Assembly: GCA_025355565.1 (NCBI GenBank)
Contig: JANXZK010000020.1
Location: forward strand, 1-60,356
Reading direction: 5' to 3'
DNA: 60,356 nt
From: a bacterium
Lineage (GTDB): Bacteria > Patescibacteriota > Minisyncoccia > Phycocordibacterales > PALSA-1337
The notes under the pieces are model-generated. The model was not told the DNA's origin. It searched no databases and saw nothing but the letters and a program-made list of their open reading frames with translations. Position 1 is the first letter of the stretch. Each line of letters opens with the position of its first letter. A program made the position numbers and the translations under genes. Positions 480 through 11,341 of the stretch are shown here, piece after piece.

Positions 480-1322
480 CTACACCGGAATAGCTCTGGC
501 CGGTACTATTTTCGCAATTAGAGGGCTGCAAACAATCAATATCGGGATGATCAAAGAATCTGGAGCGTAGTGGTACGAGAGATTTACGCCCAGGGCAGTG
601 ATTGAGATGATCAATATGATTATTCCTGTCCAGTTGATTCTTCCCGGATCGTAATCAGATACGAGATCATCCATATCCTTTTTTATATTTAGCAATCTTT
701 GCTTGAACTTCTGATTCTTACCTGGTAGTGGTATAAGCGAGATGATGTACCAAAAATTCACGGTAATAAATAGGAATGATGCTCCGATGAAAAACATCTC
801 GACCGGTGAGTCTGTAAGAGCATGATCTTGTGTAAAGAAAATATCGAGACTCGTAAATGCGAAATGAGATGAGGCAATACCGACAATGATGATCAGAAAC
901 CAGACATAAAGAGCAGCTTTCCATGAGTACCGAGAGTCGAATGAAAAAAGAATGTTAGCCAGGACAAACAGACTTGGGATTATTATGATTGCCGATAAGA
1001 TGGGACTTTGGATAATCGAAACGTGCTGGAAAATTATGTACACGAATATAACATTCCAGATGGCTAATATTTCTTTGTTAATTTTTAAGAGAAGTTTCTT
1101 TCGAAAAAACACTGCGTATATAATGCAGAAGATTACGGCAACGATAAACAGATGTCCGTACAGACTGTAGACGTCCTCACCTTTTCCAGGAATCAGACCT
1201 CCCAGAGCCAATACTGCTGATAAGATAATAACAACCAGATCGATCTTTTCGAACTTCTCCTGGATCAGCAAGAAAGCTTGTGCTAGTATACCCAAATAGA
1301 ATGGCAAAATACCGAGCAACAT
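480..1322 (-). CDS. Multi-pass membrane protein, unknown function
   Basis: 280 aa with many hydrophobic segments; starts 6 bp after the signal peptidase gene. Confidence 0.75.
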   Translation of the reverse strand: MLLGILPFYLGILAQAFLLIQEKFEKIDLVVIILSAVLALGGLIPGKGEDVYSLYGHLFIVAVIFCIIYAVFFRKKLLLKINKEILAIWNVIFVYIIFQHVSIIQSPILSAIIIIPSLFVLANILFSFDSRYSWKAALYVWFLIIIVGIASSHFAFTSLDIFFTQDHALTDSPVEMFFIGASFLFITVNFWYIISLIPLPGKNQKFKQRLLNIKKDMDDLVSDYDPGRINWTGIIILIISITALGVNLSYHYAPDSLIIPILIVCSPLIAKIVPARAIPV

Positions 1323-1328
1323 AGTAGA

Positions 1329-2063
1329 TTATTGTCCCAAGACCTTGCCAACGATGTCAGACAATCTAACAGGACCAAATGTTCTTGAGTCCAGGCTTGG
1401 AGCCGAATTATCGCTCATTACGAAGTATTCATCGCTTCCAAGATTTGCATTTGCATCGCCACTAATAGGATTGGCGACGTATTGATCTTGAAATAGAGAT
1501 CCATTGATAGAAAGCTGACCATCTTTGAGGGTAATTTTCTCTGAAGGCAATCCGATAACGCGCTTTATAAGATAAGCCTGGCTATTTGAGGATTTGAACA
1601 CTATTACATTATCCCTTTGAATGTTTTTGTCGAACTTTTCGATGAACAGATAAGCGCCCTGATTAAGATGTGGACTCATGCTTTGCCCTGACACGACAAA
1701 TGGTTCAATGACAAATAACCTGATTGGTACGGCAACCACGAGAGCAATTATCACCCCAACAACAATGTTAGCAACATACACCCCGAGCGATTTTCCCCAG
1801 GATGCTTGATAATATTTTTTGAAGAGTGAACTTAGAATCAAATACCCAGCTATCACTGATAAGATTTGAGCAATCACACCTAAACCTATCAAAGAAAAGA
1901 CTATGCCGGTTATACTGCTTCCAATACCGGATAACAGCACCACAAGCATCGATTTTCGATAGGAAGCATTAGAGATTTTGAAAAGCTTACTCAAGCCGAG
2001 GAGAATCGCAGAACTTATGAAAAAGCCTGCCACAGCTACTATTACAATAAGAAGAATCATCAT
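1329..2063 (-). CDS. lepB: Signal peptidase I (S26) with N-terminal multi-TM extension
   Basis: PFVVSGQSMSP (Ser), YLIKRVIGLP (Lys), DN...SLDSRTFGPV. Confidence 0.85.
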   Translation of the reverse strand: MMILLIVIVAVAGFFISSAILLGLSKLFKISNASYRKSMLVVLLSGIGSSITGIVFSLIGLGVIAQILSVIAGYLILSSLFKKYYQASWGKSLGVYVANIVVGVIIALVVAVPIRLFVIEPFVVSGQSMSPHLNQGAYLFIEKFDKNIQRDNVIVFKSSNSQAYLIKRVIGLPSEKITLKDGQLSINGSLFQDQYVANPISGDANANLGSDEYFVMSDNSAPSLDSRTFGPVRLSDIVGKVLGQ

Positions 2064-2232
2064 GATAATTATATAAGTATTAATAAATGCGCGAAATCTT
2101 AGTAATTACTTTACCACTAAATGTGCATCATAGCCACTATTGTTTCTGATGGCAGTCTATTCGCGACCGTGTACGGCCTGGCGCGCCACAAAAAATAGAC
2201 AGAAGGGTAGGAGATATTCACACAACCTAATA

Positions 2233-3165
2233 TCATTTGAAATTTATCCTCTGTTCAAAATCTTGGCATTTTTCTCTCGGGCAGGCAAATATATTTTTTG
2301 ACCGAAAATTGTCTATTGATTTTATCTCAGTAACTTCTAGTTCAACGAACATGTTTCTAATTGCTAAAACATGTAAATTATACAGACAATAATCAATAGA
2401 CTTTGAAAATGCGAGAACATTATATAAATCATTTCTTGGATTCTCAAAAATAATAGATGGTCTATATTTACTAATTGTCCTGGTTCCACCCTTCATAATT
2501 TTAAATTCATATCCTTCTGCATCAATTTTAATTATAGTTGGAGGTTCGAATCTTAGACTATCAATTGTATCAACATCGACATTTCCGCAATCTTTTTCTT
2601 GTATACTTGCTAAACCAGAATGAAAGTTATCCAAACTTTTCATACTCACATTATGAAGAATGTTATTGGATAGAGCTTTATTTATCGGTAACACATTTTG
2701 TAGATGAGCATCATTGATTAAGGATACCAAATCATTAAATATTCTTTCTTGCGGTTCAAATGCATAAATTTTTCCTTGAAATCCTGGGCTGCTTGCAATA
2801 TATCCAGTGAAATAACCCCAGTTAGATCCGATATCATAAAATACCCCATTAGAAAGAAATAAAATATCTAAAATGGCCATAACTTCTGGTTCATATCCAT
2901 CTCTTATAAATCTTTCAAAATACAAACTATGATATTGGGTATTTCTAGTATCAAAACTGCATAAATTATTATCAATCATAAAATAACCCTTTTGTTTAAT
3001 AAATGGTAATAATATTCTTGAAATTATTTTCGGTGCAGTTCGCCAACCATCAATTAATGTCGGATTTACAAGCGACTTGTTATCATACCCTAGTCTATAA
3101 AGTGAAGTAAGCAATGTACCTTTAGAGAAAGAGAATACTTTTCTGAATGGTAGTTTACGAATCAT
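2233..3165 (-). CDS. FkbM-family SAM-dependent methyltransferase
   Basis: FYDIGSNWG, YAFEP and IIKIDAEGYE motifs; ATGA overlap with the upstream metG stop. Confidence 0.9.
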   Translation of the reverse strand: MIRKLPFRKVFSFSKGTLLTSLYRLGYDNKSLVNPTLIDGWRTAPKIISRILLPFIKQKGYFMIDNNLCSFDTRNTQYHSLYFERFIRDGYEPEVMAILDILFLSNGVFYDIGSNWGYFTGYIASSPGFQGKIYAFEPQERIFNDLVSLINDAHLQNVLPINKALSNNILHNVSMKSLDNFHSGLASIQEKDCGNVDVDTIDSLRFEPPTIIKIDAEGYEFKIMKGGTRTISKYRPSIIFENPRNDLYNVLAFSKSIDYCLYNLHVLAIRNMFVELEVTEIKSIDNFRSKNIFACPREKCQDFEQRINFK

Positions 3166-4616
3166 ATATTAATCCTTGGGAATAAGCCGACTTCTGGTTT
3201 TTTGTTACGATCTAATGCCTCAATAATTTTTTTAGAAGTTTCGGGCATAAAACACACTAACGAGTTAGCGATCATGTAAAGCCTTAGTAACAAAAATCTA
3301 ATTAAACCCGCACCTTTCTCCATATCAATTTTAATTACTTTATACGGCTCTTCCTTAGAAATGTATTCATCAAGATTATTAATCTCTTTCCAAATAATAT
3401 CAATCGCCTTCTGAATATCAAAAGATTCAATTAACTCTGAAATGCCATCAAGATATTTCTTATTTTCGTCTTTTAGTGTAATACCATGTGTCTCTGATAG
3501 CTTAAGCACCCGACTCAACAGATTTCCAATACCATTGACCAAATTGGCATGATAAGCTTCGTCAAATGAACGTAGACTCATCGGAGAATCATCAAAACTA
3601 TTCACATGTCTTAATAAATAGTACCGTAGAGCGTCTGTGCCATATTTTTTATATAGGTCATAAGGATTAATTACATTTCCAATACTTTTGCTCATTTTAG
3701 TTCCACCTTCACCTGTTATGAAACCGTCTATAACTATAGTATCTGTGTTCGGTAAATCTGCTGCTAATAATATTGCCTGCCACATCGCAGATTGTTGTCG
3801 TAAATTATCTTTTCCTGCAAATTGAATTTTATAACCATCTTCCCAAAACTTTTTAAAGTTGCCATTTTTATCATTAGGCCAATCAAGTGTAGAGATATAA
3901 TTTGTCAGTGCATCAAACCAAACATACATGACATGATCATTGTCATTTGGGACAGGCACACCCCAGGGCATTTTCGTCTTCATTCGTGATATTGAAAAAT
4001 CCTTCAATCCCGATTGTACGAAGGAGGTAACCTCGCGTTTACGAAACTCAGGAATGATAAAGTTCTCTTTCGTATATATACTAAGAAGCTTTTCCTGGAA
4101 GGCTGAAAACTTAAAGAAATAGTTTTCTTCATTGATGAACTGTATATCAACCATTGGGTGTTCTGGGCATCTGCCATTTACTAAATCTGAATCATTTTTT
4201 TCTAATTCACATCCAACGCAATATTTGACACGATAGGTTGATTTATATATGTAACCGTTTATGTCACACCTCTTCCAAATTTCTTGACAAGCAGATATAT
4301 GTTTTTCATCCGTCGTTCTAATAAAATGTAGCGAGTTAATCAGATTTAAGATTTTTGATAAATCCTTGAATTCTTTCGCGTATATATCCACATATTCTTT
4401 TGGTGTTTTCCCAGACGTTATGGCCTTTTCATAAATTTTTTGGCCGTGTTCATCCGTTCCAGTATTAAAAAAGATATCCTTGCCAATCGAGGCATAGTAC
4501 CTCGCCATAACATCTGCTCTTATTATTTCCATGGCAAACCCAACATGAGGACTAGCATTTACATAAGGAAGCGTAGTGGTTATATAAATATTATTCTTTT
4601 GTTTTATGCTATTCAT
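3162..4616 (-). CDS. metG: Methionyl-tRNA synthetase (element-borne, canonical motifs)
   Basis: YITTTLPYVN..PHVG, TGTDEHGQK, CxxC..CPEH knuckle, YVWFDAL, KMSKS, NGIGNLLSR. Confidence 0.92.
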   Translation of the reverse strand: MNSIKQKNNIYITTTLPYVNASPHVGFAMEIIRADVMARYYASIGKDIFFNTGTDEHGQKIYEKAITSGKTPKEYVDIYAKEFKDLSKILNLINSLHFIRTTDEKHISACQEIWKRCDINGYIYKSTYRVKYCVGCELEKNDSDLVNGRCPEHPMVDIQFINEENYFFKFSAFQEKLLSIYTKENFIIPEFRKREVTSFVQSGLKDFSISRMKTKMPWGVPVPNDNDHVMYVWFDALTNYISTLDWPNDKNGNFKKFWEDGYKIQFAGKDNLRQQSAMWQAILLAADLPNTDTIVIDGFITGEGGTKMSKSIGNVINPYDLYKKYGTDALRYYLLRHVNSFDDSPMSLRSFDEAYHANLVNGIGNLLSRVLKLSETHGITLKDENKKYLDGISELIESFDIQKAIDIIWKEINNLDEYISKEEPYKVIKIDMEKGAGLIRFLLLRLYMIANSLVCFMPETSKKIIEALDRNKKPEVGLFPRINI

Positions 4617-4622
4617 AAATAT

Positions 4623-5945
4623 TTACTTATGGTTATTTTTATAAAATTCAGGTCTTAATGTCGATGTCATAAAGTATAATAATTCAATATTTGTATCATC
4701 AACAAAATCTAAAGAATTGAGAACATTGAGAAATTTATCAAACAACGAGATGGCTTCATAAAATTTATACATGGAAATATAACCGATAAACTTCCCTCGG
4801 TAATATGATGAGTCTATGTCACTGTCCATGCTCGCATGGAATAAATTATGTTTATCGACACAACTTGATATTAATGTACAAGATTTCATTGAGTTTTGCT
4901 TTATTATCTCTAAATCATCATAACTAAATTCGAAGTCGTCGAAAATATTATGTGATAACACGTAGAGTCGTATATCATCTGACGAATAATTGTGTGCTAA
5001 CTCATCAATACTAACTATATTACCTTTTGATTTCGAAATTTTTTCTCCGTTTTTATTTACAAATCCATGAACCATTATTTGATCGGGGAGTCTTTCTATT
5101 TTTGCCGCTAAAAGTATAAGCGGAAAATATATTGTATGAAATTTAAGAATATCCCTACCGATATTTTGAATAATAAAACAATCTTCCGACATCCATGTTT
5201 CGTAGAACAGTTTTTCATTACTAAAATAACCAACGGCATTTATATATGAGATAAGTGCTTCAAAAAATGCATACACAACATATTTATTATCTTTAAAAAA
5301 TGGAACGCCCAATTCGCCACTTTTAATTCTAGTTACATTGAAGTCATCAAAATATTTTAATCTATCAAGAGATTCAGTTTTATAAATATCGGGTATTATC
5401 TCTATCTGATTCCTTTCAAGTAACCCAAATAGTAAATCTATATGGGTAGCTATTTTCAAAAAGTAATTTTCTTCTGAAATAAATCGATAAGGTGTATTAT
5501 GTAAAGGACAGGAATTACTTTCTGGATTATTTCCAACAAATGATTCACACGACTGACAGTAATATGATTCCCATTTCTTAACATACAAAGCATTTTCATC
5601 AAAATTAGATATTATTTTATTTACCGCTCGAACATGGACATCGTTGCTAGTCCTGTAAAATATATCTACGGAAAGGCACAGTTTTTCCTTCAATTCAAGG
5701 AAAACATTACTAAAATGATCGCAGAATTCCCTGGTATCAATACCAGCTTTCTTGGCCTTTATTTCAATCTTAAAACTATTTTCGTCTGTTCCTGTTATAA
5801 AAAAAACTTCCTTTTTTAAATTTCTAAGGAATCTTGCTATCGTATCCGTTATTAATATTTCAAAACCAAATCCAATATGGGGTATTGAATTCACATACGG
5901 TAAGGATGTTGTTAGTATGTACTTTTTCTTGTTTAAATCTATCAT
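4623..5945 (-). CDS. Divergent MetRS-like class I aaRS paralog
   Basis: TTSLPYVN..PHIG, TGTDENS, CQSC..CPLH, YAFFEAL, GRDILKFH, KISKS; the C-terminal domain lacks the NxxGNLxxR motif. Confidence 0.88.
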   Translation of the reverse strand: MIDLNKKKYILTTSLPYVNSIPHIGFGFEILITDTIARFLRNLKKEVFFITGTDENSFKIEIKAKKAGIDTREFCDHFSNVFLELKEKLCLSVDIFYRTSNDVHVRAVNKIISNFDENALYVKKWESYYCQSCESFVGNNPESNSCPLHNTPYRFISEENYFLKIATHIDLLFGLLERNQIEIIPDIYKTESLDRLKYFDDFNVTRIKSGELGVPFFKDNKYVVYAFFEALISYINAVGYFSNEKLFYETWMSEDCFIIQNIGRDILKFHTIYFPLILLAAKIERLPDQIMVHGFVNKNGEKISKSKGNIVSIDELAHNYSSDDIRLYVLSHNIFDDFEFSYDDLEIIKQNSMKSCTLISSCVDKHNLFHASMDSDIDSSYYRGKFIGYISMYKFYEAISLFDKFLNVLNSLDFVDDTNIELLYFMTSTLRPEFYKNNHK

Positions 5946-5978
5946 AAATAGTTAACACATGCTACCATATTTATCTGT

Positions 5979-6809
5979 ATGAGTAAAATAATTACAGTAA
6001 ATAAATTTCTAAAACAGCAGGTTGACTATAAACGATTGAATAAACGTATTGTACTGATGTCTGGCAGTTTTGATTTATATCATCCTGGACATGTCGATAT
6101 ATTGAGAAAAGCAAAAAGATACGGTGATATTCTTGTGATTCTTCTAAATAGTGATTCATCAATAAGAAAATACAAAGGTAGAAATCGTCCTATTTTTAAT
6201 CAAAAAGAGAGGGCAAAAATTCTTGAATCAAATCAACACATAGACCATATAATCATATTTCCAGAGATTAATCCTAAGAAATATTTTTCTCTGATAAAGC
6301 CCGAGGTATTTTGTAATGGACTTGACTGGAGTAAGGATTTTATTGGTAGAGAAATTCTCGAACAAAACCGATGCAAACTAGTTTTCTTTAAGCGGGCAGC
6401 ATTATCAGCTAGTAATATCATAGAACGAATTATAAGAATATCTTCAATTAGAGAGAAGAATGGATTGATCTTTGATGAGCCTCTGTTTAATAGGCTAGCA
6501 TCTGATACCGAAGTATCTCAAAAACTTAAAGTTCTCTCTAAGGAAAAGGAAATCTACATTATCAGTCAAGATAATAAGATCTTTTGCCTTGGGTCTAATA
6601 AACAAATAAGAAAGAAAAATATTGTTGATACTCTATTATTTATGGCAAAAAGTAACGATTTTGTATTAAATCATAGTTATCTAATTTCTTCTAGGAGTGA
6701 CCTCATTGAGAGTGCTAAAGAAGTTAATGTTCACCCTATGTTTTTTGATATGCAGAATCCTGACTTTAAAAAATCTTTTTTAGCTTTTATCAATAAGATA
6801 ATGGTGTAG
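5979..6809 (+). CDS. Cytidylyl/adenylyltransferase (RfaE domain II-like) fused to a degenerate HAD/GmhB-like domain
   Basis: GSFDLYHPGH, LNSDSSIRKYKG.NRP, ERA motifs; the C-terminal LNHSYLISSRSDLIESAKEVNV resembles a GmhB tail. Confidence 0.85.
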   Translation: MSKIITVNKFLKQQVDYKRLNKRIVLMSGSFDLYHPGHVDILRKAKRYGDILVILLNSDSSIRKYKGRNRPIFNQKERAKILESNQHIDHIIIFPEINPKKYFSLIKPEVFCNGLDWSKDFIGREILEQNRCKLVFFKRAALSASNIIERIIRISSIREKNGLIFDEPLFNRLASDTEVSQKLKVLSKEKEIYIISQDNKIFCLGSNKQIRKKNIVDTLLFMAKSNDFVLNHSYLISSRSDLIESAKEVNVHPMFFDMQNPDFKKSFLAFINKIMV

Positions 6810-7034
6810 TGTTTCAAAAAGTTATCCACCTCCAATATTTGCATCCATTTCTAGCGGAGTTAGAATTACACCATATAAAGCCCATCGGGCAGTCCATATA
6901 CGTATGGATCGAGCGCTTGACGCTACTCTCCAAGTAGAGAGAAAAGAAACTTAACGAGGCATCATCTGTGACCTCACCTATGCGTATTTCGATATACGCT
7001 CTCTGTTCTTAATAAGTACACAATCATGCCGGAA

Positions 7035-7092
7035 GCCGTCCCAGCGGATGCTTTAGCGCCGCGGGACGGCGGGAGGGTTGACTTGATTATAG
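7035..7092 (+). promoter_or_regulatory. Putative double-strand origin (GC hairpin plus CTTGAT nick-like motif)
   Basis: GCCGTCCC...GGGACGGC hairpin at 7035-7070, then ACTTGATTATA at 7081, directly upstream of rep. Confidence 0.5.
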
Positions 7093-7134
7093 GCACACTT
7101 AAAGAGAACTCATTATCAATCTAATTCTACTTGG

Positions 7135-7959
7135 CTGGTAACTAAACTAACCCATTCCAAGCTCATCATCTCCGGCTCCACCATAGAGTCATACGAGTAC
7201 AAAGAAAAATCACTCGCATATGGGTTCTCAAACTCCAAGGGTAAAAGTCGAAAGAAAATAGTCGTCGTCAACGAAGAGACACGATTGAAGAAGATCGAAT
7301 CCAGGAAGCGTTCCATGCAACGCTCCAATTCCAAGCTACGCCGATTGGTCAACGCCAATGCTTGGAAGTGGACTAAATCTGACAGCATGCCATATCCACC
7401 TGTCTTTGCCACCTTCACATTCAAGGAAGACCTGAAGGATATCAAGACCGCCAATAGGATCTTCTCTCACTTCGTCAAACGTCTTAATTATGAGCTAGGC
7501 CATACAAAAAAGTCATTCCTGAAATACATAACCGTAATTGAATTTCAGGACTTTAGCCGTGATGGCGTCGTCCATTATCACAGCATCTTCTTTAACCTTG
7601 AATATATTCGCAAGGATATTTTGGCTGATATTTGGGGCCAAGGTTTTGTCCATATCCGAGCAATTGATCAGGTAAGCAACGCCGGAGCTTACGTATCAAA
7701 ATATCTGGTCAAGCACTTCGAGGATGATCGTCTCGACGGACAAAAGCGATACTTCTCATCTCGTGGATTGCACAAGCCCATTGAAATATTGGATCAATTC
7801 AAAGCTGATTCTATCTCATCTTTGATCCCTGCTCCATATCTGGCCAAGCAGAAAGAATTCATGAGCAAGTATCAGGGCAAGGTCGAATACAAGCAATATC
7901 TGTTGGATAGGACGCAATCGTTAAACGATGTCGTTCCGGATCTCGACCTACTCCTATGA
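7135..7959 (+). CDS. Rolling-circle replication initiator (HUH endonuclease); start uncertain (CTG 7135 or TTG 7285)
   Basis: FATFTF (motif I), EFQ..RDGVVHYH (motif II), YVSKYLVK (motif III); frame open from 7093. Confidence 0.85.
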   Translation: MVTKLTHSKLIISGSTIESYEYKEKSLAYGFSNSKGKSRKKIVVVNEETRLKKIESRKRSMQRSNSKLRRLVNANAWKWTKSDSMPYPPVFATFTFKEDLKDIKTANRIFSHFVKRLNYELGHTKKSFLKYITVIEFQDFSRDGVVHYHSIFFNLEYIRKDILADIWGQGFVHIRAIDQVSNAGAYVSKYLVKHFEDDRLDGQKRYFSSRGLHKPIEILDQFKADSISSLIPAPYLAKQKEFMSKYQGKVEYKQYLLDRTQSLNDVVPDLDLLL

Positions 7960-8141
7960 TCACCATCGAGGAGCTGAAAAAACTTGAGCCGGAATTAGCA
8001 GACAAAAGCGACAAAGAAGTTACTGTCATTCGTAATCTCCTCTACCAAGCTGCCAATCTTGCTCTTGAGAATTTCTTCGAGGACAAAAGCGGTTCCAAAA
8101 ATCCCGTTGGGTTATTGACTTCATCAGAGCAGGTGAAATAA
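7956..8141 (+). CDS. Small protein between rep and recombinase (candidate directionality factor or regulator)
   Basis: 61 aa; ATGA overlap with the rep stop and 16 bp before the recombinase. Confidence 0.65.
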   Translation: MITIEELKKLEPELADKSDKEVTVIRNLLYQAANLALENFFEDKSGSKNPVGLLTSSEQVK

Positions 8142-8157
8142 TTATCATGTAAAAAAT

Positions 8158-9846
8158 ATGAACAACACTGAAAAGAAAAATGGCATCATATATTGCAGGG
8201 TATCTTCGACGGAACAGGTTGAGGGCACTTCGCTCGAATCACAGCAGAAAATCTGTAGCGACTATGCCGTGCGCGAGAATATTAATGTACCCAAAATCTT
8301 CATTGAAAAGGGTGAATCAGCTAAAACAGCCGACCGCACTGAATTCATGTCAGCCATATCATTTTGTGGAGACAAGAAAAACAAAGTCGATTACTTCATT
8401 GTTTACAAGCTCGATAGATTTGCGAGAAACCAAGCAGATCACATTACAGTCAGGGAAACGCTTCGTAAGTACAAGGTGGAATTGAAATCCGTCACCGAAC
8501 CTATTGGCGACAGTCCTGTAGGCAAAATGATGGAAGGCATACTCTCCGCTTTCGCCGAATTCGATAACAATGTCAGAACAGAAAGAAGCGTAAACGGTAT
8601 GAAGGAACGCATCAAACAAGGCGTCTGGGTATGGGGTGCTCCCATTGGCTACCACAGGCTACAGAAGGGCGCTAACTTATCTCCGCATCCGACTTACGCG
8701 CCATACATCAAAATGATCTTCGAGGAATATTACAAGGGATCATACACTTACGATTCATTAGCCAAGTATATTACTGTCAGAGGATTCACGACAACTTCCG
8801 GAAAGCCGGCATTTCCGCAGCTCATTGAACGCATCATTAAGAATCCGATCTACTGCGGCATTATTAGAATTTGGGACATTGAAAGCGAAGGTAAATTCGA
8901 GCCCATCATCTCCCAAGATTTGTTCTACCAGTGCCAAGGAAGTGGCAGGAGGCACAAGAGTACGCCACGATCAGTTAAGAATCCAGAATTTCCGTTGAGA
9001 AAATTAACAGTATGCCAGTTTTGTGGCGAATCATTATTAACTGGTAGCAATGCAACCGGCCGCAAAGGAGTGAAATATCCTTACTACTATCACCAGAAAC
9101 AATCCTGTACTTACGCTAAATTCATTCCCAAAGAATCATTCGAGCAACTATTCGTGGAACATTTACACGAGATCAGCCCGAGCTTGAAATATGAGAATGC
9201 TTTCAAGACTATCGTTCTCGACATCTGGAAAAACAATTACAAAAGATTTGATGAAGAAAATAGACTGATCAACAGAGATGTAGACTCCTTAATTGACCAA
9301 CGTCAGCGTGTCTTTGACCTGCATCGTGAATGCACTTACTCCAACGAAGAATTTATCGATCAGAAGGAATTGATCAACAAGAAGATTGCTGGCAAAAAGT
9401 TACTTATTCACGACAAGAGCGTGGCCGAATTTAACATGGATGAAGCGCTTGAATATTGCTTCAGCTTCATCAGGAATTCAGCCGAATCTTGGCTCAAGAT
9501 GGCAGACAGACCAGAGAAGCGTCTCCGGTTCCAAAATTTGATCTTTGAGGAAAATTTGCCATTCACCGGAGAAAAATTTGGAACCACCAAACTAACGCCT
9601 ATATACAGCATATATCAGCAATTCTTAACAAATCCATCACAACTGGTGCCCCCACCAGGAATCTCGCCCTACGGGCGCTGTACAGGTTTCGCATTCTTCG
9701 TCCCTCGCAAGCTCGGGATTCAGAATATGCTCAACCTCTTCGATTTCTGGACGCGAGACGCGCAGGCGTCTCGCTTGGGGGCACAAAAATTCGCTTCGCT
9801 CATCTTTGTGCCCCCACCAGGAATCGAACCTGGATTTTCTCCTTAG
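8158..9846 (+). CDS. Large serine recombinase; in the integrated state reads through the att site into antisense tRNA
   Basis: IYCRVSS (catalytic Ser), VYKLDRFARN, NPIYCG, CQFC zinc ribbon, coiled coil; ends VPPPGIEPGFSP. Confidence 0.95.
   Translation: MNNTEKKNGIIYCRVSSTEQVEGTSLESQQKICSDYAVRENINVPKIFIEKGESAKTADRTEFMSAISFCGDKKNKVDYFIVYKLDRFARNQADHITVRETLRKYKVELKSVTEPIGDSPVGKMMEGILSAFAEFDNNVRTERSVNGMKERIKQGVWVWGAPIGYHRLQKGANLSPHPTYAPYIKMIFEEYYKGSYTYDSLAKYITVRGFTTTSGKPAFPQLIERIIKNPIYCGIIRIWDIESEGKFEPIISQDLFYQCQGSGRRHKSTPRSVKNPEFPLRKLTVCQFCGESLLTGSNATGRKGVKYPYYYHQKQSCTYAKFIPKESFEQLFVEHLHEISPSLKYENAFKTIVLDIWKNNYKRFDEENRLINRDVDSLIDQRQRVFDLHRECTYSNEEFIDQKELINKKIAGKKLLIHDKSVAEFNMDEALEYCFSFIRNSAESWLKMADRPEKRLRFQNLIFEENLPFTGEKFGTTKLTPIYSIYQQFLTNPSQLVPPPGISPYGRCTGFAFFVPRKLGIQNMLNLFDFWTRDAQASRLGAQKFASLIFVPPPGIEPGFSP
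9646..9825. repeat. 18-bp direct repeat of the tRNA-Arg 3' end enclosing an interrupted inverted copy and hairpins
   Basis: GTGCCCCCACCAGGAATC at 9646-9663 and 9808-9825; TTCGATTTCTGG..TGGGGGCACAAA between them. Confidence 0.85.
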
Positions 9847-9880
9847 GACGGAATTGTTCTATCCATTGAACTACAGGGGC
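9809..9880 (-). tRNA. tRNA-Arg(CCT)
   Basis: Cloverleaf GCCCCTG..GT CCT AA..CCAGG TTCGATT CCTGG TGGGGGCA; no encoded CCA. Confidence 0.92.
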
Positions 9881-9963
9881 TTTGGAAATGAATCTTAGGT
9901 TTTGGAACTATACCACATTATTGACTTTTGCGGCATGATGAGTTTTCTGCTAGACTGATTCCC

Positions 9964-10251
9964 ATGACCCCAGAAGAGAAGTCATTGCTCGAACGTACAT
10001 GCAAAATGGTAGAGGATAACAATGCTATCCTCCATTCTATCCGTCGCACGAATAGGCTCTCTGTCATCATACGAGTGACATATTGGGTGCTCATATTGGT
10101 CATCAGCTTTGGAGCATATTATTTCATTCAACCTTATCTCACTATGATGCTCGGTCTATATAGTCAAGCGACAGGAGGTATTCATAGTATCCAAGGTGGT
10201 ATGGACACAGTGCAAAGCGCAACGGATTCGATCAAAGAATTGTTGAGGTAG
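9964..10251 (+). CDS. Small single-TM hypothetical protein
   Basis: MTPEEK... with one TM helix; TG-C-TAGACT 7 nt before ATG 9964. Confidence 0.7.
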   Translation: MTPEEKSLLERTCKMVEDNNAILHSIRRTNRLSVIIRVTYWVLILVISFGAYYFIQPYLTMMLGLYSQATGGIHSIQGGMDTVQSATDSIKELLR

Positions 10252-10269
10252 TAAAGGACGAAGTATTTT

Positions 10270-10342
10270 GCCGAGGTAGCTCAGTTGGTAGAGCATTCCC
10301 CTGAAGAGGGAAGGGTCACCAGTTCGATCCTGGTCCTCGGCA
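10270..10342 (+). tRNA. tRNA-Phe(GAA)
   Basis: GCCGAGG..TTCCC CT GAA GA GGGAA..TTCGATC..CCTCGGCA. Confidence 0.95.
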
Positions 10343-10367
10343 CAAAGTAGATGAGCACCACTCATAT

Positions 10368-10396
10368 TTCCACTGATGGGAAAAGCATCAGTGGAA
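10368..10396. terminator. Hairpin after tRNA-Phe
   Basis: TTCCACTGATG-N7-CATCAGTGGAA. Confidence 0.55.
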
Positions 10397-10510
10397 GGGA
10401 AGTGGTTCTGGTTCCTCATGTCCCTGCAAACATGAGATCATCTATCACATCATCATGATGGTCACAAAGTATTAGATTCGTAAGAGTTATGTCGACGCAT
10501 AACTACATAC

Positions 10511-10600
10511 AGGCTAACAAATAGTAGATAAAATCCTGATGAATTTTTGATAAAAATTCGATAAAAAAAGAATCAAATTTCGATAAAATATAGATAAAAA
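10511..10600 (-). promoter_or_regulatory. 11-bp periodic TTTATC array plus extended -10 (copy 1)
   Basis: GATAAA-type units at 10527, 10538, 10549, 10560, 10571, 10582, 10593; minus strand TTTATCT-N6-TG-T-TAGCCT. Confidence 0.75.
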
Positions 10601-10642
10601 CTATTTTGGACGAAAAGCTAGTGAGGACTCGTCAGATAACTG

Positions 10643-11341
10643 TTATAAATCATAGGCATCTCGGAGATGTTCGGGGGTGTCGATGATGTAGCCACGACCT
10701 GGAATATTGGCAATAAGGCTCGGTTTTCGACCGACATTGAGCTTCTTTCGTAGGTTTCGGATATGCGCTTCGACGGTATTTGAGAACGGATTGCTGTCAG
10801 CTGTCCAGACATGTTCCATGATGAGCGCACGAGAAAGAACGGTTCCTGCATGCTTCACCATGTATTCGAGCAAGCAAAATTCCTTCCGGGTGATCTTCAA
10901 TCGACGGTTGCCTCTCATGACTATGCTCCTTTCCGAATCGATCTTTAGGTCATGTATCTGGAGCGTAGGGATATCCGCTTTCCTTGGTCTACGTGAGAGC
11001 AATTTGATCCGCGCCATCAGTTCCTGGAGAGCGAAAGGTTTGGTCATGTAGTCATCAGCTCCGGACTCGAAGGCGGCGACTTTGATATCGGGATCCTCGG
11101 TCACAGAGAGGAAAATGATCGGAGTAGTCTTGCCGAGCGCACGGATCTCTCGAGTCACCGCCAGGCCGTCTTTCTTTGGCATCGAATAGTCGAGAATGAT
11201 CATGTCATGTTCAAAGCTTCTAGCCATAAATGAGCCTTCATTGCCATCATGGGCGACCTCGACAGTGTGACCCGCAGACTTTAGACCACTGCAGAGCGCT
11301 TCAGATACAGAAATGTCATCTTCGATGATGAGTATCTTCAT
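10643..11341 (-). CDS. OmpR/PhoB-family response regulator (no adjacent kinase)
   Basis: IIEDD, ILDYSMP, GADDYMTKPF, winged helix VEAHIRNLRKKL..GRGY. Confidence 0.95.
   Translation of the reverse strand: MKILIIEDDISVSEALCSGLKSAGHTVEVAHDGNEGSFMARSFEHDMIILDYSMPKKDGLAVTREIRALGKTTPIIFLSVTEDPDIKVAAFESGADDYMTKPFALQELMARIKLLSRRPRKADIPTLQIHDLKIDSERSIVMRGNRRLKITRKEFCLLEYMVKHAGTVLSRALIMEHVWTADSNPFSNTVEAHIRNLRKKLNVGRKPSLIANIPGRGYIIDTPEHLRDAYDL

What the first reader, a model, noticed from the sequence alone, without database searches (positions are those of the whole stretch)
2233..6809. Mobile cluster: tandem MetRS and repurposed MetRS paralog with FkbM methyltransferase and nucleotidyltransferase
A visibly AT-rich, tightly coupled operon (gaps of 6 bp and -4 bp) encodes two MetRS-family proteins and a methyltransferase, with a divergent nucleotidyltransferase only 33 bp away. 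One copy is canonical. The other keeps HIGF/KISKS and the Zn knuckle but has TDEHG>TDENS, YVWFDAL>YAFFEAL (loss of the Met-pocket Trp) and no NxxGNLxxR anticodon motif. aaRS paralogs acting as tRNA-independent ligases are established (e.g. CysRS-like MshC). I infer the paralog may adenylate a non-Met substrate to make an aminoacylated, methylated sugar-nucleotide, glycan or aaRS inhibitor, with the canonical copy as donor or self-resistance gene. This is the best candidate for an undescribed biochemical system here.
Basis: partly seen in the sequence, partly recalled or inferred. Interest (0 to 1): 0.85.

Follow-up and report, generated by a model that had tools for sequence, protein, structure and literature searches.

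The report
Acquired MetRS-paralog four-gene module
A small imported gene block in a tiny sediment bacterium pairs a normal methionine-charging enzyme with a rare relative that has lost its tRNA-reading part, plus a methyltransferase and a nucleotide-adding enzyme, and it probably builds an unknown methionine-containing compound.

Summary
Window 2233-6809 is a low-GC block (about 27-40% GC against about 37-50% around it). It holds a tight operon, paralog > MetRS > FkbM methyltransferase, and a divergent HldC/TagD-like nucleotidyltransferase.

- **The paralog.** It belongs to a very rare clade: 13 sequences, and 5 clusters among 1.84 billion representatives. It folds as a type-1 MetRS. HIGH, KMSKS, the Zn knuckle and most Met-pocket residues are kept. 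Both pocket Trp residues are Phe. The anticodon-reading Asn/Arg helix is lost and the C-terminal domain is shortened.
- **Conservation.** The same four genes recur on one unrelated metagenome contig at 35-54% identity. The linked MetRS copies are sister lineages.
- **The host's own metG.** It looked frameshifted, but independent contigs show a collapsed 7-nt repeat, so it is intact and the island MetRS is an extra copy.
TDENS is not diagnostic. The pocket argues for methionine or a near analogue, not a clearly different amino acid.
- **Reading.** Most likely this is an anticodon-independent methionyl ligase in a small-molecule or glycan pathway. The extra MetRS may give immunity or supply Met-tRNA. 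The product is unknown.

It is a new variant of the known kind "aaRS-derived ligase". Interest is moderate to high.

The parts
4623..5945 (-). MetRS paralog, 440 aa. It has a type-1 MetRS catalytic core and a shortened C-terminal helix bundle with no conserved residues.
   Evidence: AF2 model with pLDDT 90.8. Best Foldseek hits are type-1 MetRS, TMq 0.74-0.83. Clade of 13, SH-aLRT 99. Motif table.
3162..4616 (-). Full-length MetRS, 484 aa, of the 'RQQ' subtype that is the housekeeping type of the host's order. It is an extra copy.
   Evidence: TIGR00398 372.8 bits, above the 336 cut-off, and Anticodon_3. 50-59% identical to the single MetRS of 29 relatives. Sister to the L176 cluster MetRS, support 99.
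2233..3165 (-). FkbM-family SAM methyltransferase, 310 aa, with a conserved N-terminal extension (motifs NTQYHS.YF and GYEPEV).
   Evidence: AF2 pLDDT 93.5. Best PDB match is FkbM 2py6; the rest are generic class-I methyltransferases.
5979..6809 (+). Nucleotidyltransferase, 276 aa. The N-terminal 150 aa are HldC/RfaE-II/TagD/ECT-like (HxGH). The C-terminal 125 aa may be a degenerate HAD-like domain.
   Evidence: The HAD-like lead is weak. It is the only PF01467 protein in the genome.
2300..6900 (.). Low-GC block (0.27-0.40 in 200-bp windows) that coincides with the four genes.
6810..7284 (.). Non-coding spacer of host-like GC with strong predicted structure. It may be the origin of the Rep element.
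   Evidence: Fold z-score -3.2. No Rfam family.
7285..7959 (+). Rolling-circle replication initiator (REP_ORF2-G2P).
7956..8141 (+). Small ORF (61 aa) coupled to Rep. No family found.
8158..9846 (+). Large serine recombinase/integrase. The listed ORF runs on into tRNA-derived sequence, so the true end is probably earlier.
   Evidence: Resolvase and Recombinase domains, CcrB/XisF-like, phrog_95 integrase.
9808..9880 (-). tRNA-Arg(CCT). Its 3' 18 nt are repeated exactly at 9646-9663.

Best explanation
**What it is.** The low-GC block is a horizontally acquired four-gene module.

**Central enzyme.** The 440-aa paralog derives from a bacterial type-1 MetRS. It still makes an aminoacyl-adenylate, most likely from methionine or a slightly larger or looser analogue. 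It can no longer read the CAU anticodon. I infer that it passes the activated aminoacyl group to an acceptor other than anticodon-selected tRNA-Met. This is the way MshC and the MetRS-like domain of hydrazine synthetases work.

**Partner enzymes.** The acceptor or the product is probably handled by the two constant partners:
- the HldC/TagD/ECT-like nucleotidyltransferase, which would make an NDP-linked phospho-sugar or phospho-alcohol;
- the FkbM methyltransferase, which would add a methyl group.

**Linked MetRS.** The full-length MetRS that travels with the paralog is a second copy beside an intact chromosomal metG. I read it as immunity against a methionyl-adenylate-like product or as a dedicated partner.

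**Shown versus inferred.**
- Shown: anatomy, conservation, linkage, foreign origin, loss of anticodon elements.
- Inferred: substrate, acceptor, product and the role of the extra MetRS.
For: - **Fold and catalytic motifs.** The AF2 model has pLDDT 90.8 and matches type-1 MetRS structures. In 13 of 13 clade members Y17, H23, G25, D54, A230, Y234, I266, F269, H270, K302, S304, K305 and S306 are kept.
- **Changed pocket.** Trp is Phe at 227 in 12 of 13 members, against Trp in 57 of 57 canonical copies. Trp is Phe or Leu at 274 in 10 of 13, against Trp in 57 of 57. Val is Ser/Ala at 226 in 13 of 13. Asn is Gly at 233 in 12 of 13. The pocket roles come from PMC9071491 and PMC5370406 (passages read).
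- **Lost anticodon reading.** The helix Asn and Arg are present in 57 of 57 canonical copies. In the clade Asn is present in 0 of 13 and Arg in 3 of 13. The C-terminal domain has a median of 86 aa against 138 and 160 aa. It has no invariant or near-invariant column after residue 337.
- **A distinct, rare clade.** SH-aLRT 99. In 1.84 billion representatives the scores are 455-669 bits for 5 clusters, then drop to 382.
- **Conserved linkage.** Contig L176 carries the paralog (46% identity), MetRS (54%), FkbM (35%) and NTase (54% over the N-domain). The operon order is the same and the NTase has moved to the other end. The two linked MetRS copies are sisters, support 99.
- **Probable further linkage.** FkbM homologues P0280 and P0287 sit on Logan contigs of exactly the lengths (9278 and 4797 bp) of the contigs of paralogs P0012 and P0003. 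This points to linkage in two more loci but does not prove it.
- **Foreign origin.** GC content. The island MetRS is not sister to the host metG. One MetRS per genome was found in 29 of 30 relatives.
- **Host metG intact.** Contigs of 4 runs carry 14 extra nt that restore one frame.
Against: - No biochemical data exist, and the acceptor and product are unknown.
- The pocket is so Met-like that ordinary Met activation, and even residual tRNA charging, cannot be excluded.
- The deeper clade members (P0006, P0010, P0012, P0122) keep longer, basic C-terminal domains. tRNA binding may therefore persist in part of the clade.
- Full gene context is known for only two loci.
- P0279, an FkbM 71% identical to the island's, lies on a 53.5-kb contig. 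No paralog of similar closeness appeared, so this FkbM type may also occur without the paralog.
- Excess substitutions in the cluster-linked MetRS (25 and 30 of 190 conserved columns, against 0-13 of about 150-169 in housekeeping copies) are mostly conservative and fit AT bias. They are not evidence of resistance.
- The L176 organism may have no other MetRS, which would weaken the immunity reading.
- The host lacks GmhA, so the NTase substrate is not heptose-1-P made by the usual route.
Confidence: 0.5

Rival explanations
1. The paralog still works in translation. It would aminoacylate tRNA-Met, or another tRNA, without reading the anticodon, perhaps helped by the co-translated full-length MetRS. 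The module would then be a translation accessory carried by a mobile element.
For: - Catalytic motifs and most Met-pocket residues are intact.
- The paralog and MetRS genes are translationally coupled in both loci and co-diverge.
- Deeper clade members keep longer, basic C-terminal domains.
Against: - All three classes of anticodon-reading elements are lost in the window's subclade.
- Both Trp residues, invariant in the 57 canonical MetRS compared, are replaced.
- This reading gives no role to the constant FkbM and NTase partners.
- MetRS depends heavily on the CAU anticodon (recalled knowledge, not from a call).
Confidence: 0.15
2. GluQRS-like RNA modification. The paralog would attach methionine to a modified nucleoside of a tRNA or another RNA, and the methyltransferase and nucleotidyltransferase would help build that modification.
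For: - GluQRS is an established example (recalled knowledge, not from a call) of a class-I synthetase paralog without an anticodon domain that still acts on tRNA.
- Foldseek hits of the FkbM model include tRNA/rRNA methyltransferases.
Against: - Those Foldseek hits are generic class-I methyltransferase matches (TMq 0.30-0.43).
- No RNA gene or Rfam family lies in the island.
- The NTase is closest to small-molecule phospho-alcohol and phospho-sugar enzymes.
Confidence: 0.1
3. The paralog is a hitch-hiking, functionally decaying or purely structural duplicate. The only selected cargo would be the extra MetRS and/or glycan genes.
For: - The C-terminal domain is poorly conserved.
- The clade is very rare. 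It was not found in 400, 399 and 399 other sampled Patescibacteria genomes (the samples overlap).
Against: - Fifty-one columns are invariant, including every ATP-binding and amino-acid-binding motif, across sequences only 36-44% identical.
- The reading frame is intact in all 13 members.
- The identical protein is seen on 4 contigs.
- Linkage is kept through 46-54% divergence and a rearrangement.
Confidence: 0.07

Closest known systems
MetRS-like domain of bacterial hydrazine synthetases (Spb40, Tri28, PyrN). This is the 'paralogous MtRS' predicted by Aravind et al. 2010 (PMC2922099) and characterised in PMC8664883 and bioRxiv 10.1101/2025.08.22.671884.
   Same: - It is a MetRS-derived enzyme.
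- It forms an aminoacyl-adenylate and hands the amino acid to a non-tRNA acceptor.
- It occurs beside an ordinary MetRS in the genome.
- It keeps a CP domain with zinc and a helix bundle.
   Different: - The known family is of the archaeo-eukaryotic MetRS type with duplicated Zn clusters, is about 550 aa long and has KFSTG in place of KMSKS.
- It is always fused or adjacent to a cupin and a Lys/Orn N-hydroxylase, and it activates Gly, Glu, Ser, Ala, Tyr or Thr (passages).
- The protein here is a 440-aa bacterial type-1 derivative with one knuckle, KISKS and a Met-like pocket.
- No cupin was found among the neighbours, and no PF13434 is present in the genome.
- Its partners are FkbM, an NTase and a MetRS.
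MshC (a CysRS paralog; Cys:GlcN-Ins ligase of mycothiol synthesis).
   Same: A class-I synthetase paralog that ligates its amino acid to a sugar-derived acceptor without tRNA.
   Different: MshC derives from CysRS, not MetRS. TIGR03447 scores 34 bits here against a cut-off of 485. MshC forms an amide on an amino sugar, whereas the acceptor here is unknown.
GluQRS (YadB), a GluRS paralog that lacks the anticodon-binding domain.
   Same: A class-I catalytic core kept while the anticodon domain is lost or reduced.
   Different: GluQRS still acts on tRNA (at queuosine of tRNA-Asp), stands alone and has no methyltransferase or NTase partners. This comparison rests on recall and was not tested.
Antibiotic gene clusters that carry a second, resistant aaRS (mupirocin/IleRS, albomycin/SerRS, agrocin 84/LeuRS). 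The principle is reviewed in PMC5388404.
   Same: A full-length second aaRS lies inside a small accessory gene cluster on acquired DNA, beside an intact housekeeping copy.
   Different: No inhibitor is known here. No resistance-type substitutions could be shown. The 'biosynthetic' part consists of only three enzymes.

Membership tests
Canonical methionine--tRNA ligase (TIGR00398 metG): the paralog | Whole-protein score above the curated cut-off | tested here: not met
   230.1 bits against a cut-off of 336.35.
Canonical methionine--tRNA ligase: the paralog | HIGH and KMSKS ATP-binding motifs | tested here: met
   PHIGF and KISKS. H23, G25, K302, S304, K305 and S306 are present in 13 of 13 clade members.
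Canonical methionine--tRNA ligase: the paralog | The 'strictly conserved' Tyr-Val-Trp of the Met pocket, and the second pocket Trp (E. coli W305) | tested here: not met
   The motif reads Y-(S/A)-F. Position 227 is F in 12 and S in 1 of 13. Position 274 is F in 9, W in 3 and L in 1 of 13. Both are Trp in 57 of 57 canonical copies. Residue roles come from PMC9071491 and PMC5370406.
Canonical methionine--tRNA ligase: the paralog | Anticodon-binding helix bundle with the N..GNL..R motif | tested here: not met
   No PF19303 or PF08264 hit. The motif Asn is present in 0 of 13 and the Arg in 3 of 13.
Canonical methionine--tRNA ligase: the island copy 3162-4616 | Score above the cut-off, catalytic motifs and an anticodon domain | tested here: met
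   372.8 bits, above 336.35, and Anticodon_3 at 23.6 bits, above 23.5. It nests in the housekeeping clade of the host's order. It has RQQ where most MetRS have KFH, as do all 26 relatives' copies read.
Hydrazine synthetase / cupin-linked paralogous MetRS | Cupin domain fused or encoded next door | tested here: not met
   None of the 9 proteins scanned around the paralog has a cupin Pfam hit. No fused form appears among the clade's representatives, which are 418-452 aa long.
Hydrazine synthetase / cupin-linked paralogous MetRS | Adjacent Lys/Orn N-monooxygenase | tested here: not met
   PF13434 has 0 matches in the whole genome, which is 99.7% complete. The control search found it in 12 of 14 genomes.
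Hydrazine synthetase / cupin-linked paralogous MetRS | Archaeo-eukaryotic MetRS type with duplicated Zn ribbons | tested here: not met
   It has a single CxxC...CxxH knuckle. The best structural and sequence matches are bacterial type-1 MetRS.
MshC | TIGR03447 equivalog score | tested here: not met
   34.3 bits against a cut-off of 485.1.
FkbM-family methyltransferase | TIGR01444 / PF05050 above the cut-off | tested here: met
   69.1 bits against 37.7, and 47.5 bits against 22.7.
HldC / RfaE domain II (heptose-1-P adenylyltransferase) | Equivalog score, and a heptose pathway in the genome | tested here: not met
   TIGR02199 scores 119.2 bits against a cut-off of 181.5. GmhA (TIGR00441) was not found in the genome. 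Only the superfamily PF01467 is met.
Self-resistance aaRS inside an inhibitor gene cluster | A second full-length aaRS in the cluster beside an intact housekeeping copy | tested here: met
   Island MetRS. The chromosomal metG is intact once the collapsed repeat is restored.
Self-resistance aaRS inside an inhibitor gene cluster | Resistance-conferring active-site changes and an inhibitor product | tested here: inconclusive
   There are 12 shared departures from 190 conserved columns. They are mostly conservative or AT-biased, and none falls on a named pocket residue. The product cannot be tested with these tools.
Large serine recombinase (integrase) | Resolvase, Recombinase and Zn-ribbon domains | tested here: met
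   PF00239 at 110 bits and PF07508 at 46.5 bits are above their cut-offs. PF13408 at 21.9 bits is just below its cut-off of 25.3. phrog_95 integrase, E 1.2e-80.

The most novel reading that the evidence does not exclude
The module would be a minimal biosynthetic system for a methylated methionyl-nucleotide. Such a compound would mimic methionyl-adenylate or the aminoacylated 3' end of tRNA and would poison MetRS or translation in the episymbiont's host or in competitors.

Proposed roles:
- The anticodon-blind paralog would load methionine onto an adenine-nucleotide-type acceptor made by the HldC-like enzyme.
- FkbM would cap the product with a methyl group.
- The co-travelling MetRS would be the immunity gene.

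If true, it would be the first natural MetRS-directed inhibitor pathway from Patescibacteria and the first tRNA-independent ligase derived from a type-1 MetRS.
Probability: 0.12. Interest if true: 0.85.

Novelty: new variant of a known kind. Interest (0 to 1): 0.6.

Why it matters
- **A second recruitment of MetRS.** Synthetase-derived ligases (MshC, hydrazine synthetases) show how translation enzymes are recruited into metabolism. This clade would be a second, independent recruitment of MetRS, from the bacterial type-1 lineage, with a new partner set.
- **An unexpected host.** Patescibacteria are thought to have almost no secondary metabolism. A mobile, conserved four-gene pathway there would be a small, easily expressed system for finding a new metabolite or glycan decoration. 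It might also reveal a natural MetRS inhibitor together with its resistance gene.
- **A caution for annotation.** The apparent 'broken housekeeping metG' in the assembly is a collapsed repeat.

Tried and rejected
- **Replacement of a broken host metG (my own idea, rejected).** The assembly's chromosomal metG (G000:C14) is frameshifted at a 7-nt tandem repeat. Logan contigs of 4 runs from one study, possibly the source sample, carry 14 extra nt there. These restore a single 517-aa frame.
- **Phage, plasmid or viral origin of the paralog (no support).** The best tblastn identities were 34.9% in phages and 36.6% in plasmids. In IMG/VR the best was 37%, over a short piece. A clade-specific DNA pattern had 0 hits in IMG/VR.
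- **Anti-phage defence system.** No PADLOC hit reached E 0.001 for the 7 proteins scanned. The only hit was a chance-level AbiEi match at E 0.0067.
- **Genome-contig scan with the clade alignment.** It is uninformative about the clade.
- **Empty-site comparison.** Genus relatives are too divergent and not syntenic. No att sites could be defined, and the 18-nt tRNA-Arg repeat has only two copies, 162 bp apart.
- **Promoter and terminator scan.** No excess over shuffles. No Rfam family lies in the island.
- **Complex prediction, island MetRS with the paralog.** No answer: score 0.00 against a mark of 0.32. This is no evidence either way.
- **RNA runs.** No RNA holder was listed, so nothing can be said on expression.
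- **ESM Atlas on the NTase C-terminus.** Only sub-threshold HAD-like leads, 0.77-0.80.
- **FkbM fold search.** Apart from the FkbM structure 2py6, only generic class-I methyltransferase matches.
- **dN/dS.** Not computed. The only two loci with DNA are about 46% identical in protein, so synonymous sites are saturated.
- **Supplements.** No supplementary files of papers were consulted. Additional file 1 of PMC2922099 may list MetRS paralogs that I could not compare.

Full report
**1. The observation**

One search lists four ORFs at exactly the stated places:
- FkbM, 2233-3165(-), 310 aa.
- MetRS, 3162-4616(-), 484 aa.
- MetRS paralog, 4623-5945(-), 440 aa.
- Nucleotidyltransferase (NTase), 5979-6809(+), 276 aa.

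The spacings are a 4-bp overlap, a 6-bp gap and a 33-bp divergent gap. The 1-kb windows 2001-7000 have GC 0.292-0.337, and every other 1-kb window of the 60-kb window is 0.371-0.507. At 200-bp resolution the low-GC block runs from about 2300 to about 6900, which is the four genes.

Pfam and NCBIfam confirm the families. The 484-aa protein passes the metG equivalog cut-off (372.8 against 336.35 bits) and has an Anticodon_3 hit. The 440-aa protein scores 230 bits, below the cut-off, and has no anticodon-domain hit.

**2. Surroundings**

The genome is an 832-kb, 27-contig, 99.7%-complete Patescibacteria-type assembly (proteins of relatives carry source names such as Paceibacterota and Patescibacteria). 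To the right of the block lie:
- a 475-nt structured spacer (fold z-score -3.2);
- a rolling-circle Rep (PF23343; PHROG replication initiators);
- a 61-aa ORF;
- a large serine recombinase (Resolvase and Recombinase domains; phrog_95 integrase);
- tRNA-Arg(CCT) and tRNA-Phe.

These genes have host-like GC, so the low-GC block is either cargo or a separate insertion beside an integrative element. I could not define att sites. Genus-level relatives are only about 55-70% identical in flanking proteins and are not syntenic.

**3. The paralog is a member of a tiny, conserved clade**

A search of 5.8 billion proteins gave 2637 hits. The top 11 (P0002-P0012) are 418-469 aa long, 40-51% identical, and none has an anticodon-domain Pfam. 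After them come ordinary Patescibacteria MetRS at 40% identity or less.

A profile search of 1.84 billion 50%-identity representatives found 5 clusters at 455-669 bits, then a gap to 382 bits. No longer, fused form appeared among them.

With the clade profile, no second member was found in 400 other phylum-sampled, 399 order-sampled or 399 class-sampled genomes. The samples overlap, so the result is 'not found in those searched'. One search includes the unpublished genome G154.

In a 70-row tree the 13 clade members form one group (SH-aLRT 99). The tree was made with the IQ-TREE quick search, LG+G4, SH-aLRT support only and midpoint rooting. I left out two partial relatives and representatives longer than 560 aa. 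The program flagged several paralog rows for unusual amino-acid composition, so deep placement should be read with care.

**4. What is kept and what is lost**

AlphaFold2 with the 12-row alignment gives pLDDT 90.8 and pTM 0.92. Foldseek's best matches are bacterial and kinetoplastid type-1 MetRS, with TMq 0.74-0.83. The best sequence match in the PDB is Aquifex aeolicus MetRS.

For the Met pocket I used residues named in two papers, of which I read passages. For S. aureus MetRS these are Pro11, Trp237, Ala240, Leu241, Tyr244, Ile273, Phe276, His277, Asp51 and Tyr14, with 'Tyr235-Val236-Trp237 strictly conserved' (PMC9071491). For E. coli they are W305 and Y15 as the specificity subsite (PMC5370406). 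I tabulated these columns in 13 clade members, 30 'FH-type' canonical MetRS and 27 'RQQ-type' MetRS.

| Feature | Paralog clade (13) | Canonical MetRS (57) |
|---|---|---|
| Y17, D54, A230, Y234, I266, F269, H270 | kept in 13 of 13 | not summarised here |
| L231 | kept in 12 of 13 | not summarised here |
| HIGH and KMSKS positions | kept in 13 of 13 | not summarised here |
| Position 227 | Phe in 12 of 13 | Trp in 57 of 57 |
| Position 274 | Phe or Leu in 10 of 13 | Trp in 57 of 57 |
| Position 226 | Ser/Ala in 13 of 13 | Val in 55 of 57 |
| Position 233 | Gly in 12 of 13 | mostly Asn |
| Anticodon helix Asn | 0 of 13 | 57 of 57 |
| Anticodon helix Arg | 3 of 13 | 57 of 57 |

The C-terminal domain has a median of 86 aa in the clade, against 138 aa (RQQ type) and 160 aa (FH type). 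No column after residue 337 is even 90% conserved, whereas the core has 51 invariant columns.

TDEN(S) is not special: 19 of 30 FH-type MetRS also have Asn there. Ser57 is fixed in the clade but also occurs in 7 of 30 FH-type copies.

In summary, adenylation chemistry and a nearly Met-shaped but somewhat roomier pocket are under selection, while anticodon reading is gone.

**5. The linkage is conserved**

A clade-specific DNA pattern found 94 stretches in the metagenome collection, and 80 loci were returned. I ran tblastn with six island proteins against those 80. One locus, L176 (7379 bp, GC 0.24-0.34 throughout), carries all four genes:
- NTase, 957-1739(+), 54% identity over the N-domain.
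- FkbM, 1728-2636(-), 35% identity.
- MetRS, 2642-4111(-), 54% identity.
- Paralog, 4071-5375(-), 46% identity.

The paralog > MetRS > FkbM order and the tight coupling are the same as in the window. The NTase has moved to the other end. L176 has no Rep or recombinase.

In the tree the island MetRS and the L176 MetRS are sisters (support 99) inside the housekeeping clade of the host's order. They lie next to two other families of that order. The host's own metG groups with its genus. So the pair of MetRS and paralog has travelled and diverged together.

Two further FkbM homologues, P0280 (42% identity) and P0287 (32%), lie on Logan contigs whose lengths (9278 and 4797 bp) equal those of the contigs of paralogs P0012 and P0003. 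I take this as probable linkage, not proof.

Against strict linkage, the FkbM P0279 (71% identical) lies on a 53.5-kb contig, and one search showed no equally close paralog.

**6. The host's own metG**

The assembly shows the chromosomal metG split by a frameshift in a GATTCA(A/G) 7-nt repeat. I tested the idea that the island copy replaces a dead gene. Logan contigs of four DNA runs carry 14 more letters inside that repeat and no other difference. These runs come from one study and may be the source sample, so they are not independent of the assembly's reads, only of its assembler. With the extra letters the gene is one open frame through the anticodon domain. The frameshift is therefore most likely a collapsed repeat, and the organism has two full MetRS plus the paralog.

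Each of 29 of 30 relatives has one MetRS match region. One of them is in two pieces, and one genome had no match at E 1e-30.

**7. The partners**

- **FkbM.** It belongs to a subfamily with a conserved N-terminal extension. Its model (pLDDT 93.5) matches the FkbM structure 2py6 and otherwise only generic class-I methyltransferases.
- **NTase N-domain.** It is nearest to RfaE-II/HldC. It also matches ethanolamine-P and glycerol-3-P cytidylyltransferases and the Fom1 cytidylyltransferase domain.
- **NTase C-terminus.** The cluster-type copies (window, L176, P0269) share a roughly 120-aa C-terminal extension. It looks like a HAD domain without a conserved nucleophile. The ESM lead for this is only sub-threshold.
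- **Genome context.** The NTase is the only PF01467 protein in the genome. GmhA was not found. The substrate is therefore probably not heptose-1-P made by the standard route.

**8. Mechanism**

The best-supported reading is an anticodon-independent methionyl (or near-Met) ligase that works with a nucleotide-activating enzyme and a methyltransferase. The precedent is the MetRS-like domain of hydrazine synthetases, shown in vitro to be tRNA-independent (PMC8664883; bioRxiv 10.1101/2025.08.22.671884). Ordinary MetRS can also transfer Met from Met-AMP to thiols such as CoA (PMC5370406).

Because the paralog keeps its own ATP motifs, it does not need the neighbouring MetRS as a donor. The extra MetRS is better explained as immunity or as a partner. 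Neither role is shown. Its excess substitutions (25 and 30 of 190 conserved columns, against 0-13 in housekeeping copies) are conservative and AT-biased.

**9. Comparison with what is known, and novelty**

The only MetRS paralogs I found in print are the cupin-linked family. Two searches bear on this. One search found 15 papers holding any of five terms. One search found 27 papers, of which 15 were listed. I read passages of PMC2922099, PMC8664883, PMC5370406, PMC5388404 and PMC9071491, and saw PMC12376268 only as an abstract in a listing.

The clade here fails each defining feature of that family: no cupin, no N-hydroxylase, the wrong MetRS type and a different Zn pattern. It is also not MshC. 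It works like these ligases but is not a member of either family. I therefore rate it a new variant of a known kind.

**10. Verdict**

The ligase idea and the conserved module hold. The 'non-Met substrate' and the TDENS argument do not.
- Confidence in the general mechanism is about 0.5.
- The specific product is unknown.
- Interest is 0.6.

Noticed in passing
G000:C14:37647-39120 (locus L002, around position 1483): The assembly's chromosomal metG is frameshifted at a 7-nt tandem repeat. Logan contigs of 4 runs carry two more repeat units, which restore one frame. This is probably an assembly collapse that would mis-annotate an essential gene as a pseudogene.
   Followed up: yes
window 3162-4616; loci L211-L237; L176:2642-4111: The only MetRS of this Patescibacteria order has GKDNLRQQSAMWQ where most MetRS have GKDIxKFHxxYWP. 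The Phe-His pair that lines the Met pocket in S. aureus MetRS is Gln-Gln in 27 of 27 aligned sequences, and in all 26 relatives' copies that my ORF filter kept. This is an unexplained alternative Met pocket in a housekeeping enzyme.
   Followed up: partly
window 9646-9663 and 9808-9825: An exact 18-nt copy of the 3' end of tRNA-Arg(CCT) lies 162 bp from the gene, inside the tail of the serine-recombinase ORF. It may be the scar of an earlier integration. There are only two copies in the window.
   Followed up: partly
window 6810-7284: A 475-nt non-coding spacer of host-like GC between the NTase and Rep. It has several strong hairpins (MFE z-score -3.2) and no Rfam match. It may be the origin of the rolling-circle Rep element.
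   Followed up: partly
window 8158-9846: The serine-recombinase ORF has no stop codon until it has run through tRNA-derived sequence (two VPPPGI stretches). The real C-terminus is probably earlier, or the gene is fused to the scar.
   Followed up: no
G000:C19:45810-46253: A second FkbM-family gene (304-aa frame) lies elsewhere in the genome, outside the island.
   Followed up: no
window 5979-6809: The island's NTase is the only CTP_transf_like (PF01467) protein in this 99.7%-complete genome. The host therefore has no NadD-, CoaD- or TagD-type enzyme of its own from this family.
   Followed up: partly
window 9808-11341 compared with L252 (G424) and L254 (G411): The block tRNA-Arg / small ORF / tRNA-Phe lies on the other side of the response-regulator gene in two genus relatives. 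This indicates a local rearrangement next to the integrase.
   Followed up: no
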